From Methanocaldococcus jannaschii DSM 2661 (GTDB taxonomy: Archaea > AGJL01 > Methanococci > Methanococcales > Methanocaldococcaceae), in assembly GCF_000091665.1 (NCBI RefSeq), contig NC_000909.1, positions 1,222,961 through 1,254,960 on the forward strand: 32,000 nt of DNA, read 5' to 3'. This document shows positions 6,810 to 29,652 of the stretch, in pieces. Numbering within the stretch: the stretch's first letter is position 1; every line of letters starts with the position of its first letter. The notes under the pieces were generated by a model. That model saw only the letters and a list, made by a program, of their open reading frames with translations, did not search any database and was not told the DNA's origin. A program made the translations under genes and the position numbers.

Positions 6810-7550
6810 TTCTATTACTTTAAAAATCAACGGAAAAGGAGAGACAATATACAAAATATAAGAAAGACATATGAAAACCAAAAAAGGGAGTTGAGGAGTA
6901 ACCCAAACTTTTCCTTTGTATGTTTTTTTCTCTTCCTTTTCTTCATTTATATTGGGAATTAAGGAAAGGTTTTCATCATCCCCCATAATGGTCTCAAATT
7001 TTTTAACTTTGTCTATATCTTTTTTTAAAGCTATAAACAATAATGGTAAATTCTTTAACTTTAATCTTTTATGATTTCCATTTTTTAGGTTTATTAATAA
7101 GATAAATATACAGTAGGGGATGACAAAAAGTATTGCATTTAAAAAAATAATGAAGGTAAAGAACATCCCTTTTAAATAACTCAGCCCCATTAAAAATTTA
7201 CAATCTCCTCCTCCCATAAAATTAAGGTAGTATAAAAAAATTCCAATCAAATAAAATACTAAAAAAGATAACGCAAAGTATGATTTAAACAAAATAAATG
7301 ACAATAAAAATAAAAACACTCCAATATAAACTAACTTATTAAACTTTTCATATCTAACAGATAGGGTAATAAATAAAACAGCAAAAATCTCAATAAAAAA
7401 TAGTAATAAACTTTTATTATATAGGAGATGAATAAAAACTCCTACCCAGAGCATAGATATCCATAAAAAGTCAGTAACCTCTCTTTTTCTCCAATCCTCA
7501 ACTGCCCCATATATTGAGCAAATCAACCCATATAAATAACCCAAATCCAT
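6786..7550 (-). CDS. Archaeal A24-family prepilin/preflagellin peptidase (EppA/FlaK-like).
   Basis: Polytopic membrane protein. The first acidic motif is near the N-terminus (AVEDWRKREVTD) and a second GxGD-type motif (NFMGGGDCKFLMGLS) follows. It is the last gene of the pilus-like operon. Confidence 0.8.
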   Translation of the reverse strand: MDLGYLYGLICSIYGAVEDWRKREVTDFLWISMLWVGVFIHLLYNKSLLLFFIEIFAVLFITLSVRYEKFNKLVYIGVFLFLLSFILFKSYFALSFLVFYLIGIFLYYLNFMGGGDCKFLMGLSYLKGMFFTFIIFLNAILFVIPYCIFILLINLKNGNHKRLKLKNLPLLFIALKKDIDKVKKFETIMGDDENLSLIPNINEEKEEKKTYKGKVWVTPQLPFLVFICLSYILYIVSPFPLIFKVIELVIKSHF

Positions 7551-7562
7551 ACTTCCACCAAA

Positions 7563-18904: not shown

Positions 18905-19011
18905 TTTATTCTATTTTTTTCAAATCAATAAAATTTATTGAAGAAGGTTTGAACACCTCCAAAGGAAGGCGTTTATTAGTGCGTTAGTTATCTAAGAAGT
19001 TTGAAAGACAC

Positions 19012-19869
19012 TTATAATTTAGCATCCAATTTTATTCTTTTAATTGCCCTTCTATCTGCCCAGCATTGAATACAAATTCCTACAGGTAAAGAAGCTGTAT
19101 GGCATCCAGCAATCTCAATAAAAACATCTAAAGCAGTTATATCCCCTCCTAAACCCATTGCTCCAATTCCTAAGCTATTTATTTTTTCTAACAACTCTTT
19201 TTCAAGATTAGCTATTTCTTTATCCCTATGTCTCTCTCCTATTTTTCTTAGCAGTGCTTTTTTAGCTAATTTTAATGCTACATCAGCAGTTCCCCCAATG
19301 CCTATTCCAACAACTATTGGAGGACATGGCTTTCCTCCAGCATTTGCAATTGTTTCTAAAACAAAGTTTTTTATCCCCTCTATTCCATCAGAGGGCTTTA
19401 ACATCTTTAAAGCACTCATGTTTTCGCTTCCTGCCCCTTTTGGAAATGCAATTATCTCAATCTCTCTATCTAAGCTTTCATCAAACTCAATATTTATGAA
19501 TGGGGAATTTAAGCCAACATTTGTTTTAAAATTCTCTCTTGTTAAAGGATGAACTACATTAGGTCTTAAAGGAACCTCTTCCGTTGCTTTTTTTACTCCT
19601 TCTTTTATTTCTTCAATGATTTTCATTATTTCTGATGAATTTATATTCTTTCCAATTTTCAAAAATACTATTGGGACACCAGTATCTTGACATAGAGGAA
19701 CTTGCGTTTCTTCAGCTATTTTGTTATTTTCTATGATTGCTTTTAATGTGTTTTTTGATATTTCACTACTTTCTTTTTTATATGCTTCTTCTAAAGCATT
19801 TTTTACATCTTCTGGTAGATAAATAGCTGCCTCTCTAAATAATTCAACAACAACATCGGAGATTTTCAT
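19012..19869 (-). CDS. fumA: Class I (Fe-S) fumarate hydratase alpha subunit / tartrate dehydratase alpha-type subunit.
   Basis: 285 aa carrying the family motifs PLCQDTGVPIVFLKIG and GGKPCPPIVVGIGIGGTAD, plus the C-terminal Cys pair (CHTASLPVGICIQC). Confidence 0.85.
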   Translation of the reverse strand: MKISDVVVELFREAAIYLPEDVKNALEEAYKKESSEISKNTLKAIIENNKIAEETQVPLCQDTGVPIVFLKIGKNINSSEIMKIIEEIKEGVKKATEEVPLRPNVVHPLTRENFKTNVGLNSPFINIEFDESLDREIEIIAFPKGAGSENMSALKMLKPSDGIEGIKNFVLETIANAGGKPCPPIVVGIGIGGTADVALKLAKKALLRKIGERHRDKEIANLEKELLEKINSLGIGAMGLGGDITALDVFIEIAGCHTASLPVGICIQCWADRRAIKRIKLDAKL

Positions 19870-20549: not shown

Positions 20550-21617
20550 TTATAAACTGTGGAAATCAGCAATCATCTTTAAATCATCCTCTAAACATCT
20601 TCCCTTTGTAGTTAAATAATTCCCAACCATTAATCCGTCTAAGACCATTAAGGCATAAGATTGGAAGTCTCTTAAGTTGTATATTCTCCCACCAGCCAAT
20701 CTAATCTCTGCATAAGGCATAATTATTTTATATAACGCTATCAATTTCAAAGCATCTGAGACACTTATTGGCTTAATCTCTCCATTTTTTATTTTTTCAT
20801 AAGCTTTAGTTCCTTCAATTGGATGTAAAATATTTATTGGAACGCTATCAACCCCTAACTCTTTAAGTTCAAAAGCCATCTTTATTCTCTCCTCTACGCT
20901 CTCTCCAAGTCCAAATATTCCACCACTACAAACCTCTAAGTCAAGTTTTTTTGCCTCTTTTATAACTTTTACTTTATCTTCATAGCTATGAGTTGAACAG
21001 ATATTTTTAAAGTAGTTTTTTGATGCCTCTAAGTTATTGTGAATCCTAACGTCCAATTTTTTTAGTTCTTTTAATTTTTCTCTATCCAATAAACCCAAAG
21101 AACAGCACACTTTTAAATTTGTTTCTTCCTTTATAAGCTCTATAGCTTCAACAATTTCAATGAATTCATCATCATTAATTTTTTTGCCACTTGTTACTAT
21201 ACTGAATCTCTCTACCCATAGGGGAAACCCCCTATTGGGATACCCCACGTCCATTAAGTTGGGGCTTTCAGCCCCAATTAATGTCCCACGTTCTATGGAT
21301 GAGGAAATTTTAGAACATTCATCGATGATTTTTTTAGCATACTCTAAAATCTCCTTTTTAGATTTTAATGGATATATTGGGATGTTGCATTTACTATAAA
21401 TTGATTGAGAGCAGAAAATACAATCCTCTTTGCATTTTCCACTTTTTGCATTTATTATAGCACATAATTTAATTTTGCTATTATTTTTTATCCTATTTTT
21501 TATTTTAAAAGCCAAATATAACAAATCTATAGCACTGAAGTTATTATATAAATAGAGGGCATCATCAAAATCTATTTTGTTCTTTAGAGATTTTTTTAAA
21601 AAAGTTTCAATCTCCAT
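20550..21617 (-). CDS. bioB: Biotin synthase (radical SAM) carrying a ~30-35 codon in-frame insertion.
   Basis: It has the CKEDCIFCSQS CxxxCxxC motif, FSIVTSGKK and GLMVGNYLTTKG. The start is re-placed at ATG 21617 (MEIETFL) behind GGTGAT plus 4 nt. The segment SSSIERGTLIGAESPNLMDVGYPNRGFPLWVE sits between the AKK... helix and the conserved (R)FSIVTSG strand, where I recall BioB proteins as contiguous. Confidence 0.9.
   Translation of the reverse strand: MEIETFLKKSLKNKIDFDDALYLYNNFSAIDLLYLAFKIKNRIKNNSKIKLCAIINAKSGKCKEDCIFCSQSIYSKCNIPIYPLKSKKEILEYAKKIIDECSKISSSIERGTLIGAESPNLMDVGYPNRGFPLWVERFSIVTSGKKINDDEFIEIVEAIELIKEETNLKVCCSLGLLDREKLKELKKLDVRIHNNLEASKNYFKNICSTHSYEDKVKVIKEAKKLDLEVCSGGIFGLGESVEERIKMAFELKELGVDSVPINILHPIEGTKAYEKIKNGEIKPISVSDALKLIALYKIIMPYAEIRLAGGRIYNLRDFQSYALMVLDGLMVGNYLTTKGRCLEDDLKMIADFHSL
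21205..21300 (-). repeat. GC-rich two-hairpin element embedded in frame in bioB (modules X and Y).
   Basis: Hairpin X spans 21215..21239 (CCCATAGGGG AAA CCCCCTATTGGG). Hairpin Y spans 21252..21283 (CATTAAGTTGGGGCT TTC AGCCCCAATTAATG). ACGTGGG direct repeats flank Y. GC content is far above the surrounding coding sequence. Confidence 0.7.
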
Positions 21618-21676
21618 AAAAATCACCCTATATACAATAAATAAACATTAACTTTTAAAATTTATTGGTGATTGTT
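21618..21676. promoter_or_regulatory. Compact divergent bioB / bioW promoter region with mirror-image SD sites.
   Basis: 59 bp lie between the two start codons. GGTGAT SD motifs occur on both strands (21622..21627 and 21667..21672). TATA-like CCTATATACAATAAA and TTTTAAAATTTA lie between them, each about 25-45 nt from the opposite-side start. Confidence 0.4.
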
Positions 21677-24304: not shown

Positions 24305-25690
24305 ATGAACATTGATAAAAATTTACTTGAAAAATGGGATAAAGAATATATTTGGCATCCATACACACAGATGAAAGAATATAGAGAATCAAAAAACTTG
24401 ATTATTGAGAGAGGAGAGGGCAATTATTTAATTGACATTTATGGAAATAAGTATTTGGATGCTGTTTCATCTATATGGTGTAATCTATTTGGACATAGTA
24501 GAAAGGAGATAATTGAAGCAATAAAAAATCAAGCTGATAAAATCTGCCATTCAACACTTTTAGGCTGTGGAAACGTCCCATCAATTTTATTGGCAAAAAA
24601 ATTGGTGGATATAACTCCAAAGCATTTAACAAAGGTATTTTACTCTGAAGATGGAGCAGAGGCAGTTGAAATAGCAATTAAAATGGCTTATCAATATTAT
24701 GTTTTAAGAGGAGATAAGGGAAGAACTAAATTTATTTCAGTTAAAGAAGGCTATCATGGGGACACTGTTGGAGCAATGAGTGTTGGGGGGAGTGAATTAT
24801 TCCATGGGGTTTTTAAGCCTTTATTGTTTAAAGGCTATCATGCAAATCCTCCTTACTGCTACAGATGCAAATACCACAACTTTAAAGATACTGATGAGAG
24901 AAATGAAAAAGGTTGTGAAATGGAATGTTTAAATGAGATGATTAGTTTAATTGAAAAACATGCTGAGGAAGTATTTTGTGTTATCCTTGAAGGAGGAATT
25001 ATGGGTTCTGCTGGAATGATTCCATATCCAGATGGATATATTGAAGGAGTTGCAAAGGCATGTAAGGAGAATGATGTAATCTTTATCCTCGATGAGGTAG
25101 CTACTGGATTTGGAAGAACTGGGAAGATGTTTTTCTGTGATAATGAAGAGCTAAAAAAGTTGGAGAAGCCAGATATCCTTTGTCTTGGAAAGGGATTAAC
25201 TGGAGGCTATTTGCCATTAGCGGCAACTCTAACAACTGATGAAATCTATAACCAATTCTTAGGAGAGTTTGGAGAGAGTAAGCAACTCTATCATGGTCAT
25301 ACATACACTGGAAACCAACTTCTATGCTCTGCTGCATTAGCAACATTAGAGATTTTTGAGAAGGAGAATGTGATAGAGAATATCCAACCAAAAATAAAGC
25401 TCTTCCATAAAGAATTAAGGAAATTAAAGGAACTTGAGCATGTTGGAGATGTTAGAGGAAGGGGTTTTATGGTCGGAATAGAGCTTGTAAAAGATAAAGA
25501 GACTAAAGAACCCTACCCTTACGGTTATAAAGCTGGCTACAGAGTTGCTGAAAAGCTGTTAGAAAAAGGTATCTACATGAGACCAATTGGTAATGTTATT
25601 ATCTTAGTCCCACCATTGTCAATAACTGAGAAAGAGATTATTTATCTATGCGATGCGTTGTATGAAGCTATAAAGGAAGCTGACCTGTAA
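24305..25690 (+). CDS. bioA: Adenosylmethionine-8-amino-7-oxononanoate aminotransferase (class III aminotransferase).
   Basis: It has HGHSRKEI, YHGDT, DEVATGFGRTGKMF and the LGKGLTGGYLPL PLP-Lys region. The ATG at 24305 follows a GAGGTGA SD that overlaps the bioD stop. Confidence 0.9.
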   Translation: MNIDKNLLEKWDKEYIWHPYTQMKEYRESKNLIIERGEGNYLIDIYGNKYLDAVSSIWCNLFGHSRKEIIEAIKNQADKICHSTLLGCGNVPSILLAKKLVDITPKHLTKVFYSEDGAEAVEIAIKMAYQYYVLRGDKGRTKFISVKEGYHGDTVGAMSVGGSELFHGVFKPLLFKGYHANPPYCYRCKYHNFKDTDERNEKGCEMECLNEMISLIEKHAEEVFCVILEGGIMGSAGMIPYPDGYIEGVAKACKENDVIFILDEVATGFGRTGKMFFCDNEELKKLEKPDILCLGKGLTGGYLPLAATLTTDEIYNQFLGEFGESKQLYHGHTYTGNQLLCSAALATLEIFEKENVIENIQPKIKLFHKELRKLKELEHVGDVRGRGFMVGIELVKDKETKEPYPYGYKAGYRVAEKLLEKGIYMRPIGNVIILVPPLSITEKEIIYLCDALYEAIKEADL

Positions 25691-25869
25691 TAATGGACAT
25701 TAATTAGGGCTGAAAGCCCTAACTTATAACCAATTATCAAAGCTAAATTATCTAATTAAGGAATATTTAGAAGCCCAAAGGGCTTCTATAAGTGCCTTAT
25801 TTAATTATAAAACTTTGATAATTGGTTAAATGGACGAGTTTTAATGAAACTTTTTCTAAAAGTTTCGAG
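25691..25869 (+). repeat. Composite hairpin element starting immediately after the bioA stop codon: module Y interrupted by a ~100-nt palindromic module, followed by a 9-bp-stem hairpin.
   Basis: Module Y spans 25701..25726 (TTAATTAGGGCT GAA AGCCCTAACTTA). The inner module has perfect 16-bp terminal inverted repeats, TAACCAATTATCAAAG at 25727..25742 and CTTTGATAATTGGTTA at 25813..25828. Its central hairpin TAGAAGCCC AAA GGGCTTCTA spans 25768..25788. GAAACTTTT TCT AAAAGTTTC lies at 25846..25866. Confidence 0.7.
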
Positions 25870-25923
25870 GAGATTATTTATCTATATGATTCCTTATATG
25901 ATGCTATAAAGGAAGCCGACTAG
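25870..25923 (+). other. Orphan duplicate of the last 17 codons of bioA.
   Basis: GAGATTATTTATCTATATGATTCCTTATATGATGCTATAAAGGAAGCCGACTAG (EIIYLYDSLYDAIKEAD*) compares with bioA 25634..25690 (EIIYLCDALYEAIKEADL*). By my alignment 44 of 51 nt are identical. Confidence 0.75.
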
Positions 25924-25952
25924 TAAATAATGAATAGTTATTTTCTATTATT

Positions 25953-27134
25953 TTATAACACCTTCTTTATAGCATTCCAAACTAAAAAACTCTGAGGCTT
26001 TAAAATCCCTTCTATTGGATTTAAGAATAAGATATTTCTTTTAATTAAAAACTCTCTAATTTTTTTAGGTATTTTTATATCCTCTATTTCATAATCTTCT
26101 TTAAATAATTTTAATGCATCAACAACTTTTTTATAAAGTTCCTCATCTTCTTCTTTAACATCCTCTAAGAAATATTTTAACTTTTGAGTAGCATCCTTAA
26201 GCATAAAATCTAAAATATCGTTTAAATTTTCATATCTCAACTTATCAATAACTTTTATTATTAAAACTGGTTTTCCCCCTACATAATTATAGATTAACTC
26301 TTTATCTTCATTAGTTAAGCTCATGTTATTCTCTTTAGCCAAAAAATCCATAAATTTTAAGGCAGTTTCCTTATCAAAATCATCCACTAAGATATATTCA
26401 CCTCGCATAGAGGCAAAGCCTCTATTGCTATACTCCAGAGCGGGGTTGCCAAAGGCAACCCCACTTTCTATCTGGGGGAGTATACCAATAGAGGGGGCGT
26501 AGCCCCCTCTATGGTCATCCACCAAAATATAATCAACTCTATCCTCCAACATTGCTTCATTATAAACTCTCTCTATGAATAAGCTATCTGAACTTAGGCA
26601 GAAAACGTGGCATAGGTGTTTATGCTTGGTTAGAGATACAAAGTAATTAAATAGCTCATAGATTAAGAATCCATTAATTTTCATGTCTCCAATCTTTTGA
26701 AGTTCATCAATAATAATTATTGGTTGCTTTCCTTCTCTTTTAATGTCCATTAAAACATTGGTTATATATCTAAAAACATTTTTAGTTGTTTTCTTTTTAA
26801 AAATCTCGTTTAGAGTATTTTTTGGTATGGGAATGCCATACAATGAAGGTAAGTCATTGATAATTGCCTTAATTACTTCTATAGGGCTTTTATCTCCTTC
26901 ATATTCCTCAAACAAAACTTCAATGAAATCATCGTATTTAGAGATAAAAATCTCCCTCAAATCAAAATAAAACACAATGTATTTATTTTTATCTAATCTA
27001 TTGTTAATAATCTCATTTATTAAGGCAGTTTTTCCACTATTTATGGAGCCATAGATGAAATAAATCAAATTTGGTTCTCCTTCTATAATAGATAAGATTT
27101 TATGAATTTCTTTCTCTCTATTGAAGAATTTCAT
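25953..27134 (-). CDS. Archaeal ATPase family protein (PF01637-like AAA/STAND-type NTPase) carrying a 45-codon in-frame insertion.
   Basis: [10 protein letters not shown]...[16 protein letters not shown] is Walker A and [10 protein letters not shown] is Walker B. The start is re-placed at ATG 27134 behind GGTGAT plus 4 nt. The inserted segment is [45 protein letters not shown]. Confidence 0.8.
26403..26513 (-). repeat. GC-rich three-hairpin element embedded in frame in the ATPase gene.
   Basis: The hairpins span 26405..26428 (GCATAGAGGC AAA GCCTCTATTGC), 26430..26483 (ATACTCC...GGGGTTGCC AAA GGCAACCCC...GGGGGAGTAT) and 26485..26514 (CCAATAGAGGGGGC GTA GCCCCCTCTATGG). Imperfect 24-bp direct repeats flank it at 26379..26402 and 26514..26537. 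Confidence 0.75.
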
Positions 27135-27180
27135 AAAAATCACCAAAATTCCCATTATAAAATGAGAATATATAGTAAAT

Positions 27181-27691: not shown

Positions 27692-29182
27692 TTATTCTTT
27701 CACTTTCCATTTTCTATGTAGATATATCGCTTTAGTTGGGCAAATATTGTAGCAAGCTCCACAGAACTCACATCTCTCTTTATCAATAACTCCATAATCA
27801 ATGCAATTATTTGGGCAGACCTTGTTGCAGAGACCACACTTTATACAGAAGTCCATATCAGTTCTAATAAATGAGTTTTCTCTATCAACAACCTTTTTAT
27901 AGCCAGTTGTGTTTGGAATCACATCTCTTGGGCAGTGAATAGCACATGTTTCACAAGCTATGCAATTATCAGTAAATAAAACCTCTCCATTACTTCTGTC
28001 TATTATTATAGCGTCTCTTGGACATACATTTGAGCATGTTCCACAGAGTATGCAGTTTTCATCTTTAATTTTCTCCAATTTAACTGTTGTTATTGATATT
28101 GCTTCTTCTGGACAGTTATTTATACAAATTTCACATAGAGAGCAGCCTCCAACAACTCTATCATCTACAGGACTTTCGCAGGAGTAAAGTTTATTATTGC
28201 CCATAGATGCCTTTGGCATCAAATTTCCTTTATGGATGTATAATCTGCGAAAGTCCTGTTTAATTCTTCTAACATCGTTAGGGCAGATTTTAACGCATTC
28301 CATACATTTCCAACAAACATCTGGGCTGTAATATAGATGTCCATTCTCAAACCTTAAAGCTCCACTTGGGCAGTGTTCAGCACACAACCCACAATTTATA
28401 CAATAACTTGTTGGTTGGGATGTTTTATCTTCCTTAACTTTAATAACTTTAAAGTTTTCAACTTTTAAAGCATCGTTAGGGCAGATTTCAACACATTTTA
28501 AACAGAGAATGCATTTATTATAATCTACTTCTCCATCTTTAATGGCATCTTTTGGGCAGTTCTCTCCACACAAATTGCAGGATGTGCATGCATCTATAGA
28601 ATCTGGGACTATAGTATCTCTTGGACATAAATAAGAGCATCTTAAGCATCCAACGCATTTATCTCTATCAATTTTAATAGATTTCCTTTCTACTTTTTCA
28701 ACAACTTTTCCTGGTTTTTCTTCAGCTCTAAATAATTTAACTTTCATAAGATTCTCTAAAACTTTTAAGTATCTCTCTGCTAAGCCTTCTCTCTTTGTGT
28801 TTAACAATTCATAAGAGCTAACTCTTGCATTGTAAGGGCAAACCTCAACACAGACGCCACACATTGAGCAAATTCCCATTGGGAATTTTTTTCCATCTTT
28901 CTCTACAATCTTTATAATTCCAATTGGGCAGACGTTGGCACATATACCGCAACCGTTACATCTCCTTCTATCTACATAATAGCCTCCAAACTCATTCCTC
29001 TTAATTGCCTTGTTTGGGCAGTTTCTTGCACACTCTCCGCATGTTAAACAGCTAAAACTTTTATTATTTAATAAAAATATTGCATCTGTTGGACAAGCTT
29101 CCATACACTTGGATGTTTGTGAGAAAGGACAGGATTGGCATTTCTCCTCTACCCTACATTCATCTAATATAGTTATAATCAT
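27692..29182 (-). CDS. Polyferredoxin (13 canonical CxxCxxCxxxCP motifs plus one degenerate N-terminal motif).
   Basis: I counted the motifs in the translation: [144 protein letters not shown] and [12 protein letters not shown]. The start is re-placed at ATG 29182 behind GGAGGAAGG. Confidence 0.9.
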
Positions 29183-29193
29183 CCTTCCTCCCC

Positions 29194-29652
29194 TCAAATT
29201 TGTTTTAAGCCATATTTCTCTTTTAAAAAGTCTTTAATTACTTCCAACACATTTTCAGCATCTTTTAAACATTCTTCAGCATCTTCTTTAGTATATTCTT
29301 CCAATGGATTCCAAAGTTCTCCAAAATACGGTTCTGGATACCTTGGCATAACCCAATGTTCTTCTAAGCTTTCTATTTTTGGTATTAGATTTAGTAATTT
29401 CTCTTTCCATGAATCCTCAATTTTCATCTCGTAGATGACATTCCTAAACACTCCTGAAACTACATGTCTTCTGAAAATAATTCCATTTAAAATTAAAACT
29501 GCTTTTACAGCTTTTTCAACACATTGTTGGGAGTGATAGACTGAATCTGGATAGTGATTTGTTTTTAGTAGAACTTTTGCCACTTCTAAATCCTCTTCCG
29601 CCCTTTTTATGAATAGCTTAGCATACTTTATATTAAATCCGCTATCTTCCAT
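29194..29652 (-). CDS. HEPN-domain protein, the putative toxin partner of the adjacent nucleotidyltransferase.
   Basis: 152-aa all-helical protein with an N-terminal ...[12 protein letters not shown]... helix and the C-terminal [12 protein letters not shown] signature typical of archaeal HEPN proteins. It overlaps the MNT gene by 25 nt. Confidence 0.75.

What the first reader, a model, noticed from the sequence alone, without database searches (positions are those of the whole stretch)
26379..26537. Three-hairpin element inserted in frame in the archaeal-ATPase gene, bracketed by a duplicated YILVDD-coding repeat
A 135-nt unit, exactly 45 codons, interrupts the NTPase gene. The core at 26403..26513 folds into three GC-rich hairpins. 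The two outer hairpins are the same CATAG-stem-loop-stem-CTATTG motif in opposite orientation, so the element ends behave like hairpin inverted repeats. It is bracketed by 24-bp direct repeats, 26379..26402 and 26514..26537, identical at 18 of 24 positions. These translate to GEYILVDD and VDYILVDD. Three of the six differences (ATC/ATT, TTA/TTG, GAT/GAC) are synonymous. The other three hit the first two codons, two of them non-synonymous (G/V, E/D) and the GGT/GTT codon carrying two changes. Both copies therefore look constrained at the protein level. A duplication this long is unusual for a DDE-transposase target-site duplication.
Basis: seen in the sequence. Interest (0 to 1): 0.75.

Follow-up and report, generated by a model that had tools for sequence, protein, structure and literature searches.

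The report
Mobile hairpin repeat inside ATPase gene
A 110-bp GC-rich palindromic repeat, a small non-coding mobile element found across Methanocaldococcus genomes, has landed in frame inside the M. jannaschii ATPase gene MJ1301 and duplicated 25 bp of its target; the kind of event is already known, but the long duplication proves typical of the family and is unusual.

Summary
The window is Methanocaldococcus jannaschii and the gene is MJ1301 (PF01637 ATPase). At 26405-26514 lies a 110-bp palindromic element, 54.5% GC in a 26% GC gene. It has three perfect hairpins: two inverted "CATAG-hairpin-CTATTG..ATAC.CC" end modules around a central hairpin. A 25-bp direct repeat flanks it (26380-26404 and 26515-26539, 21/25). 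Element plus repeat make 135 nt, or 45 codons, with no stop.

None of 65 homologues has the segment. The syntenic orthologue in MAG 4571-419 carries a single copy of the repeat, an empty site. The scan found 60 more end-module copies in 48 other Methanocaldococcaceae loci. The same three-module composite recurs at 88% identity.

Long flanking duplications are the rule. Thirteen clean events have 17-53 bp, and a 57-bp one lies next door at the 3' end of bioA. Two more in-frame palindromic insertions sit in the window, in BioB (MJ1296) and polyferredoxin (MJ1303).

This matches the palindromic repeats "with coding potential" published for this genome (Suyama et al. 2005), which resemble Rickettsia RPEs, so the kind is known. 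The claim that both repeat copies are constrained as protein is not supported. The long, variable duplication and the persistently perfect hairpins remain unexplained.

The parts
25953..27155 (-). Host gene MJ1301 (UniProt Q58697), 'archaeal ATPase' PF01637 plus the MJ1010-like C-terminal domain PF21690. The ORF is 400 aa; RefSeq starts at 27134, giving 393 aa.
   Evidence: ORF list. Pfam E = 6e-73 and 6.8e-39. Exact match to M. jannaschii proteins AAB99326.1 and WP_064496782.1.
26405..26514 (.). The inserted element proper: 110 bp, palindromic, 54.5% GC in a 26% GC gene. Built as end module A, central module B, end module A'. Only one reading frame per orientation is open.
   Evidence: Boundaries from the filled/empty comparison with L001. 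Composition and frames. Composition profile.
26406..26436 (+). End module A: CATAG-hairpin-CTATTGCTATACTCC, hairpin 26407-26425 with an 8-bp stem. Read on the gene strand as [10 protein letters not shown].
   Evidence: The scan found 60 more copies in 48 other Methanocaldococcaceae loci. Of all 63 copies counted, 55 have a perfect 8-11-bp stem.
26437..26476 (.). Central module B: AGAGCGGGGTTGCCAAAGGCAACCCCACTTTCTAT.., hairpin 26442-26462 with a 9-bp stem.
   Evidence: The same module follows module A in L013, L022/L074, L032 and L078.
26477..26513 (-). End module A' in inverted orientation, hairpin 26488-26512 with an 11-bp stem. Read on the gene strand as [12 protein letters not shown].
   Evidence: Inverted repeat 26419-26436 / 26477-26494 at 17/18.
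26515..26539 (-). Target duplication, copy upstream in the gene (GAGTTGATTATATTTTGGTGGATGA, ..VDYILVD.). No change since the duplication. Predicted to form strand beta-5 of the ATPase core.
   Evidence: AlphaFold strand at residues 200-204.
26380..26404 (-). Target duplication, copy downstream in the gene (GAGGTGAATATATCTTAGTGGATGA, ..GEYILVD.). It carries all 4 changes made since the duplication and lies mostly in the low-confidence loop.
   Evidence: pLDDT below 50 for residues 208-248.

Best explanation
The feature is a copy of a small, non-autonomous, palindromic mobile repeat of Methanocaldococcus. It belongs to the kind published for M. jannaschii as palindromic repetitive elements with coding potential (MJRE), which resemble Rickettsia palindromic elements.

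Shown:
- The 110-bp unit is built from modules that occur in many copies, and in many combinations, in related genomes.
- It entered MJ1301 in the M. jannaschii lineage. The syntenic orthologue and all 65 homologues lack it.
- Its arrival duplicated 25 bp of target. Element plus duplication add 135 nt.
- The palindrome is stop-free in only one frame per orientation, and that is the frame in use. The ATPase therefore stays intact with 45 extra residues.

Inferred:
- The insert survives because it lies at the end of core strand beta-5, before the helical lid. There it can loop out as a disordered surface loop, with the upstream copy of YILVDD serving as the strand.
- The hairpins are features of the element, needed for its own spread or upkeep as DNA or RNA. 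They are not features of the ATPase.
- The element was put in by a trans-acting activity, or a replication or repair pathway, that opens the target with a very wide and variable stagger of 17-57 nt. The CATAG-hairpin end is joined next to one copy of the duplication. Which enzyme does this is unknown.
For: Real and foreign:
- Three perfect hairpins, z = -5.8 (RNA) and -7.0 (DNA).
- GC 54.5% against 26% for the gene.
- The fold is predicted to persist at 85 C (-15.1 kcal/mol), while the median 110-nt window of the gene has no stable fold.

Lineage-specific:
- 0 of 65 homologues have residues in the insert columns.
- L001 keeps the same gene order (Fer4 gene, ATPase, bioA, D, F, W, B). Its ATPase is 354 aa with one copy of the 25-mer.
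- The same 400-aa protein is recorded on two contigs, with two protein accessions (AAB99326.1 and the third-party HII58975.1).

A repeat family:
- The end-module pattern gave 49 genomic stretches. All are Methanocaldococcaceae except one chance hit.
- 55 of 63 copies keep perfect stems of differing length and sequence.
- The same A-B-A' composite is in L013 at 88% identity over 102 bp.

Target duplication is the family rule:
- 26 of 55 end modules have flanking direct repeats, against 4% in a mismatched-flank control.
- 13 clean events have 17-53 bp. Three further filled/empty pairs confirm this.
- In the window, a 57-nt duplication of the bioA 3' end flanks the neighbouring intergenic array.

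Translated through:
- Three separate intragenic palindromic insertions in this window add 135, about 102 and 93 nt. All are multiples of 3 and stop-free.
- The end module is read in the same frame in MJ1301 (YSNRGF) and BioB (YPNRGF).

Location: AlphaFold (pLDDT 81.8) gives a strand at 200-204, a disordered stretch at 208-248 and a helix from 255.

Literature: the M. jannaschii elements are cited as repeats fused in frame into protein genes (PMC2229807; PMC2996958).
Against: - No autonomous partner or transposase was identified.
- The rest of the M. jannaschii chromosome was not returned by the genome scan, so copy number in the host genome was not measured here.
- The primary paper (Suyama, Lathe and Bork 2005) is not held. 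Identity with the published MJRE consensus, and whether this copy is one of the three coding-region elements reported there, rests on my recollection of its abstract.
- The duplication is only 84% identical, which suggests an old event. Yet all 28 stem pairs of the element are intact. A purely selfish, decaying insert does not explain this without ongoing selection or conversion.
- There are no transcript or peptide data.
- Only one truly syntenic empty site exists. The other 64 sequences are paralogues or more distant homologues.
Confidence: 0.8

Rival explanations
1. This was not transposition. The element is filler DNA copied from another array during repair of a break, or during a replication template switch. 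Such events create a tandem duplication of the target with the copied stretch at the junction. No dedicated transposase is involved.
For: - Duplications are long and differ between events, 17-57 bp. A fixed transposase geometry does not predict this.
- Inserts range from one module (46 bp) to seven-module arrays (316 bp). One end is fixed and the other variable, as expected if a variable stretch of an existing array is copied.
- No copies were found on plasmids, phages or viral contigs.
Against: - The end next to the duplication is the same CATAG hairpin within 0-7 nt in all 13 events. This was partly imposed by the search design.
- Complete palindromic A-X-A' units recur.
- Donor loci, and microhomology at the junctions, could not be examined.
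Confidence: 0.15
2. The segment is now a functional part of the protein, an exapted new loop. It is kept because the 45 residues, including the second YILVDD, matter for MJ1301 activity.
For: - The ORF is intact, although the duplication is diverged and so probably old.
- The YILVDD residues of the downstream copy are unchanged at the amino-acid level.
Against: - The segment is absent from all 65 homologues.
- It is predicted to be disordered, pLDDT below 50 over residues 208-248.
- Only 2 synonymous and 2 non-synonymous changes occurred, all in the downstream copy.
- The peptide is dictated by a DNA palindrome whose stems are perfect, which points to constraint on the nucleic acid.
- A peptide search of 1.84 billion representative proteins found nothing related.
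Confidence: 0.08
3. The 135 nt are removed or skipped, so the protein is ancestral in length. This could occur by an archaeal bulge-helix-bulge intron, or by ribosome bypassing with take-off and landing sites in the two repeat copies. The model is the GC-rich hairpin 'byps' of yeast mitochondria or T4 gene 60 (my own knowledge).
For: - Direct repeats lie at both borders, with very stable hairpins between them.
- Removal between equivalent points of the repeats would restore the ancestral frame exactly.
Against: - The flanks are direct repeats, not complementary, and the minimum-energy fold shows no bulge-helix-bulge motif.
- If the insert were removed there would be no reason for it to be a multiple of 3 and stop-free. 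Yet all three intragenic insertions in this window are both. For length alone the chance is about (1/3)^3.
Confidence: 0.03
4. The feature is an assembly artefact or a chance arrangement.
For: None found.
Against: - The identical protein is recorded on two contigs.
- No shuffle reaches the observed fold energy.
- Homologous modules and composites occur in independent genomes.
Confidence: 0.01

Closest known systems
MJRE1-3, palindromic repetitive elements with coding potential in M. jannaschii (Suyama, Lathe and Bork 2005, FEBS Lett 579:5281; cited in PMC2229807 and PMC2996958; details from my memory of the abstract)
   Same: - Same organism.
- About 100-bp palindromic repeats, mostly extragenic.
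- A few lie inside protein genes without breaking the frame.
   Different: I could not read the paper. So I could not check a sequence match to MJRE1, 2 or 3, or whether MJ1301 is one of the three published coding-region cases. To my knowledge the abstract does not mention three things seen here: the module mosaicism, the spread across other Methanocaldococcus species, and the 17-57-bp target duplications.
Rickettsia palindromic elements (RPE; Ogata et al. 2000, cited in PMC2996958)
   Same: - Selfish palindromic repeats inserted in frame into housekeeping genes.
- Readable in both orientations.
- Placed in surface loops of the proteins.
   Different: - Bacterial, with no sequence relation.
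- As far as I know, RPEs are not reported with long target duplications.
- The archaeal elements are mosaics of short GC-rich hairpin modules in an AT-rich hyperthermophile.
REP / BIME / REPIN elements mobilised by RAYT (TnpA-REP) tyrosine transposases (PMC3733652, PMC3116915, PMC3333891)
   Same: - Short GC-rich hairpins with a conserved head sequence.
- Arranged in inverted pairs and mosaic arrays, mostly intergenic.
   Different: - The REP head is GTAG or CGTC, here it is CATAG.
- IS200/IS605-type single-strand transposition makes no target duplication.
- No RAYT gene was looked for or found here.
[quoted passage not shown]
   Same: Small, non-coding, with terminal inverted repeats and a target duplication, multi-copy, and dependent on a function supplied in trans.
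   Different: - MITE duplications are short and fixed, 2-10 bp. Here they are 17-57 bp and variable.
- One end of the inserted unit varies.
- No parent insertion sequence is known.
Insertions with long, variable target duplication: IS1634/IS1549 (8-514 bp; family enriched in Euryarchaeota, PMC2266710), IS1630 (19-26 bp) and restriction-modification gene insertions (PMC2853133)
   Same: Long direct repeats of target DNA whose length differs from event to event. The mechanism is unexplained there too.
   Different: Those are kilobase-sized elements that carry genes. Here the inserts are 46-316 bp of hairpin modules with no gene. No IS1634-family transposase was linked to them in this work.

Membership tests
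MJRE (M. jannaschii palindromic repetitive elements) | Palindromic element of about 100 bp | tested here: met
   110 bp. Three hairpins plus outer inverted repeats at 17/18 and 8/8.
MJRE (M. jannaschii palindromic repetitive elements) | Multi-copy, dispersed, mostly extragenic in the genome | tested here: inconclusive
   The scan found 60 more end-module copies in 48 other Methanocaldococcaceae loci, and 3 related elements lie in the window. The M. jannaschii chromosome outside the window was not returned by the scan.
MJRE (M. jannaschii palindromic repetitive elements) | Sequence match to the published MJRE1, 2 or 3 consensus | not testable with these tools
   The paper is not held. No Rfam or other library holds these elements.
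MJRE (M. jannaschii palindromic repetitive elements) | Can sit in a coding region without disrupting the frame | tested here: met
   135 nt, stop-free, in frame. The same holds for BioB and MJ1303.
MITE | Terminal inverted repeats | tested here: met
   Modules A and A' in inverted orientation.
MITE | Short target-site duplication of fixed length, set by the parent transposase | tested here: not met
   25 bp here. Across events the range is 17-57 bp and variable.
MITE | A related autonomous insertion sequence with the same ends | not tested
   No search for a transposase gene flanked by A modules was made.
REP/REPIN-RAYT | Conserved GTAG or CGTC head next to the hairpin | tested here: not met
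   By design of the search pattern, the head is CATAG in all 63 copies. The published criterion is from PMC3733652.
REP/REPIN-RAYT | Insertion without target duplication (single-strand HUH mechanism) | tested here: not met
   Long duplications flank the elements.
Rickettsia palindromic elements | Membership of one of the Rickettsia RPE sequence families | not tested
   Different domain of life. The resemblance is functional only, and no RPE sequences were compared.
Archaeal bulge-helix-bulge intron | Two 3-nt bulges separated by a 4-bp helix at the splice sites | tested here: not met
   Absent from the minimum-energy and centroid folds. The flanks are direct repeats, not complementary. No dedicated BHB search was run.

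The most novel reading that the evidence does not exclude
The CATAG-hairpin elements of Methanocaldococcus spread by a route not described for archaeal small repeats. Each insertion duplicates a long stretch of target whose length varies between events (17-57 bp). One element end is fixed and the other varies. This resembles nick-primed copying with a variable second-strand cut, or a very widely staggered integrase. After insertion the hairpins are actively kept perfect while the flanking duplicated DNA decays.
Probability: 0.25. Interest if true: 0.65.

Novelty: already known. Interest (0 to 1): 0.4.

Why it matters
The feature itself is a textbook case of selfish palindromic DNA adding residues to a protein without breaking it. 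That was already reported for this genome, so the finding alone adds little.

Two side results may be worth a specialist's time.
- The target duplications of this element family are far longer and more variable than those of ordinary transposons. This points to an unidentified insertion pathway in hyperthermophilic archaea. It can now be tested, because several Methanocaldococcus genomes offer filled and empty sites.
- The hairpins stay perfect while neighbouring duplicated DNA diverges by 16%. In BioB the element is more conserved than the gene around it. This suggests selection or conversion acting on the nucleic-acid structure.

The long duplications also explain how such elements can land on the first or last codons of genes without killing them, since a complete copy of the gene end is regenerated.

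Tried and rejected
- **Rfam:** no family matched at gathering thresholds over the window. Only chance-level hits appeared at E up to 10 over the element. No tRNA or tmRNA was found.
- **Insert peptide searches:** the word-index search found nothing. The exhaustive HMMER search gave three weak hits in unrelated repeat proteins.
- **Plasmids, phages, viral contigs:** no copy of the element or its end module.
- **Metagenome scan with the central-module pattern:** 34 stretches, almost all unrelated terminator-like hairpins in GC-rich genomes. Only L074 and L078 were relevant.
- **Looking for more syntenic orthologues:** the nearest M. fervens homologue (P0005) is a paralogue at another locus. In strain FS406-22 the slot holds a Piwi/Argonaute gene instead. 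MJ1010 (P0044) could not be located.
- **A strict test for duplications directly abutting A..A' units:** only 3 of 21 were positive, because most units lie inside larger arrays. The looser flank scan and the filled/empty pairs were more informative.
- **Literature:** the primary MJRE paper and the archaeal insertion-sequence review are not held. The citing papers give only one-line descriptions.
- **A link to CRISPR spacer integration (Cas1):** considered because some A modules sit beside or inside CRISPR repeats. They lie at the degenerate trailer-end repeat, not at the leader. The duplication lengths do not match the 30- and 37-nt repeat lengths. It remains a speculation only.

Full report
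**Where we are.** The window is from the Methanocaldococcus jannaschii chromosome. The ORF at 25953..27155(-) is identical to MJ1301 (UniProt Q58697; RefSeq 393 aa from the ATG at 27134). It carries PF01637 (ATPase_2, E = 6e-73) and the MJ1010-like C-terminal domain PF21690. Its neighbours are the biotin operon (bioB MJ1296, bioW, bioF, bioD, bioA) on one side and a ferredoxin gene and polyferredoxin MJ1303 on the other.

**Checking the observation.** The sequence is as described.
- Three perfect GC-rich hairpins lie at 26407-26425, 26442-26462 and 26488-26512, with stems of 8, 9 and 11 bp and 3-nt loops.
- The 159-nt region folds far better than dinucleotide shuffles, both as RNA (-71.9 kcal/mol, z = -5.75) and as DNA (z = -6.96). 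None of 200 shuffles does as well.
- The outer hairpins belong to the same 31-37-nt module, CATAG-stem-loop-stem-CTATTG-NN-ATAC-NCC, in opposite orientations.
- Two further inverted repeats (26419-26436/26477-26494 at 17/18; 26406-13/26506-13 at 8/8) make the whole unit one palindrome centred near 26452.
- The flanking direct repeat is real, with a spacing of exactly 135 nt. The best register is 25 nt, 26380-26404 versus 26515-26539, at 21/25.
- GC is 54.5% in the element against 26% in the rest of the gene.
- At 85 C, near the organism's growth temperature (my own knowledge), the three-hairpin fold is still predicted (-15.1 kcal/mol). The median 110-nt window of the gene has no stable fold.

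**It is an insertion.**
- In alignments of 21 and then 65 homologues from Methanocaldococcus and Methanotorris, none has a residue in the 39 insert-specific columns.
- Locus L001 (MAG 4571-419, contig JAMOTQ010000015.1) has the same gene order as the window. Its ATPase (P0002, 354 aa, 87% DNA identity) reads ...AGAGTGGATTACATTTTGGTGGATGATTTTGATAAA... with one copy of the 25-mer. Both window copies align to it.
- The structure is therefore [25-bp copy][110-bp element 26405-26514][25-bp copy], and 110 + 25 = 135 nt = 45 codons.
- With L001 as outgroup, the two window copies share two derived bases. All four later changes lie in the copy downstream in the gene (26380-26404): two synonymous and two non-synonymous (V to G, D to E).
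- The GAC/GAT and AGA/CGA differences come from the terminal C of the element at each junction. They are not substitutions.

**It is a member of a repeat family.**
- A scan of 185,579 species genomes with the end-module pattern returned 49 stretches holding 61 matches. All were Methanocaldococcus or Methanocaldococcaceae (sp. 28A, sp. 16A, M. indicus and four MAGs) except one obvious chance hit.
- M. jannaschii itself was not returned although the window holds three matches. Its record is evidently not searchable there.
- Of the 63 module copies, 55 have a perfect stem of 8-11 bp with a 3-nt loop. Stem length, distal stem sequence and loop all vary, so the pairing is preserved through change. 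The pattern itself enforced 6 of the pairs.
- The modules are mosaic. Module A combines with at least five other recurring hairpin modules in different orders.
- The same A-B-A' composite as in MJ1301 occurs in L013 at 88% identity over 102 bp. A-B halves occur in L022/L074 and L032.
- No copy was found in plasmid, phage or viral collections. Rfam has nothing like it.
- The sampled regions of M. fervens (21 kb) and strain FS406-22 (42 kb) hold 0-1 GC-rich perfect hairpins each, against 7 in this 32-kb window. The family looks lineage-specific in abundance.

**The long duplication is the rule, not an oddity of this copy.**
- Filled/empty comparisons among the fetched loci gave three more events. 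Their duplications are about 33 bp (perfect), 26 bp perfect extending to about 40 bp, and 16-18 bp.
- A systematic scan found flanking direct repeats scoring 13 or more at 26 of 55 end modules, against 4% when flanks from different loci were paired. Some of these are CRISPR repeats or other repeat modules.
- Thirteen are clean, mostly unique-sequence duplications of 17, 21, 21, 21, 22, 23, 24, 25, 26, 33, 43, 44 and 53 bp. They bracket inserts of 46-316 bp, from one to about seven modules.
- In all of them a (C)CATAG hairpin lies within 0-7 nt of one copy, while the other end varies. The search started from A modules, so the first point is partly built in.
- Inside the window, the array just downstream of bioA (25691-25869) is bracketed by a 57-nt duplication of the last 57 nt of bioA, 25634-25690 versus 25870-25926, at 84% identity.
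- Several events duplicate a ribosome-binding site and start codon, or the last codons and stop. One complete gene end therefore survives.

**Why the gene survives.**
- The element is stop-free in only one of three frames in each orientation. Because it is a palindrome, this is the same HRG... frame both ways. That is the frame used.
- The end module is read in the same frame in BioB (YPNRGFPLW) as in MJ1301 (YSNRGFASM).
- An AlphaFold2 model built on 66 sequences (mean pLDDT 81.8, pTM 0.78) puts the upstream VDYIL (residues 200-204 of the 393-aa protein) into the last core strand. This follows the Walker B strand (137-143) and the sensor-1 strand (176-181).
- The model leaves residues 208-248 (the insert and the start of the second copy) at pLDDT below 50, and resumes with a helix at 255.
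- The insert is thus best read as a tolerated surface loop between the ATPase core and the helical domain.
- Three independent intragenic insertions in this window add 135, about 102 and 93 nt, all multiples of three and stop-free. This argues that they are translated rather than spliced or bypassed.

**What remains unexplained.**
- Mechanism. Ordinary DDE transposases give short, fixed duplications, and HUH single-strand transposases give none. Neither fits duplications of 17-57 bp that differ between events. Precedents for long variable duplications exist: IS1634/IS1549 (8-514 bp, a family enriched in Euryarchaeota, with no mechanistic model; PMC2266710), IS1630 (19-26 bp), and "insertion with long target duplication" of restriction-modification genes (PMC2853133). 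None was linked to these elements here. A replication or repair template switch that copies part of an existing array is a serious alternative.
- Upkeep of the hairpins. The MJ1301 duplication has diverged by 16%, and the bioA one also by 16%. Yet all 28 stem pairs of the element are intact. At the same rate, roughly 9 substitutions would be expected in 110 nt, about half of them in stems. In BioB the element is 97.6% identical between M. jannaschii and MAG 4571-419, while the rest of the gene is 84.8% identical. Only 5% of equal-sized windows are that conserved. Selection on the structure, or conversion between copies, seems to act.

**Comparison with what is known.**
- Palindromic repeats of about 100 bp were described for M. 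jannaschii by Suyama, Lathe and Bork (2005). From my memory of the abstract: 141 elements, three groups MJRE1-3, and three MJRE2 copies inside coding regions that keep the frame.
- Later papers cite that work as archaeal repeats fused in frame into protein genes, alongside the Rickettsia and Wolbachia palindromic elements (PMC2229807; PMC2996958).
- The paper itself is not held, so membership by sequence, and whether MJ1301 is one of the three, could not be verified.
- The feature works like an RPE or MJRE. It fails the defining tests for a classical MITE (short fixed duplication) and for REP/RAYT elements (GTAG/CGTC head, no duplication).

**Verdict.** The kind of element is already known for this genome, so the finding itself is of modest interest. 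The long, variable target duplications and the persistence of perfect hairpins deserve follow-up.

Noticed in passing
window 21217-21291, within gene 20550..21626(-): Biotin synthase BioB (MJ1296) carries a second in-frame hairpin element, built from end module A plus a TTGGGGCTTTCAGCCCCAA hairpin module. It lies within about 102 extra nt (34 aa). The segment is absent from BioB of FS406-22, M. bathoardescens, sp. 10A, M. fervens and M. villosus. It is present in MAG 4571-419, decayed in P0127 and shortened in M. lauensis. The element is 97.6% identical between the two species, against 84.8% for the rest of the gene.
   Followed up: partly
window 28167-28259, within gene 27692..29197(-): A third in-frame palindromic insertion lies in polyferredoxin MJ1303: 93 bp, or 31 codons. 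It has 15-bp perfect terminal inverted repeats (ACAGGACTTTCGCAG) and a central hairpin (GATGCCTTTGGCATC). It is absent from the FS406-22 orthologue, and the M. fervens and M. bathoardescens proteins are about 30-36 aa shorter. It has no long duplication and belongs to a different family. No other copy was found in the fetched loci.
   Followed up: partly
window 25634-25926: The last 57 nt of bioA, including its stop codon (25634-25690), are repeated at 25870-25926 at 84% identity. The two copies bracket a 179-bp intergenic array of hairpin modules. One module is split by a nested palindromic element with ends TAACCAATTATCAAAG / CTTTGATAATTGGTTA. The syntenic MAG locus L001 has a 45-bp spacer and a single copy.
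   Followed up: partly
window 18911-19014: A 104-bp intergenic insertion relative to strain FS406-22 (L052 12548-12556). It has a short duplication of about 6-9 bp (AATTTA..) and contains the hairpin AACACCTCCAAAGGAAGGCGTT.
   Followed up: no
L052 1509-4028 (Methanocaldococcus sp. FS406-22): In FS406-22 the slot between bioA and the ferredoxin gene, where M. jannaschii has MJ1301, holds an 839-aa Piwi-domain (Argonaute-like) gene. A different PF01637/DUF234 ATPase sits between bioD and bioF. The slot looks like a variable island of the defence-island type.
   Followed up: no
L053 10001-11173 (FS406-22 paralogue P0074); also MJ1010 (P0044) and P0071 in alignment A1: Other members of the same ATPase family carry short in-frame inserts. 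One is the 15 aa EAKLRATKTEGFRLI, encoded by two small hairpins (TCGAAGCGAAGCTTCGA and ACGAAAACCGAAGGTTTTCGT), at 44% GC against 27% for the gene. In-frame hairpin insertions recur in this family.
   Followed up: partly
L004, L033, L035, L045, L048: End modules abut or split the terminal, degenerate CRISPR repeat of arrays with the 37-nt repeat GTTTCCATCCTTGTTTTAATGGACTAACTATTCAAAC. In L045 a 46-bp one-module insert is bracketed by a perfect 21-bp duplication of part of the repeat.
   Followed up: partly
L022 100-260 and L074 around 7260-7560: An A-B half element sits at the 3' end of a 227-aa iron-sulfur protein gene, with a 43-bp duplication of the gene's last codons. The reading frame now ends at a stop just after the upstream copy.
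   Followed up: partly
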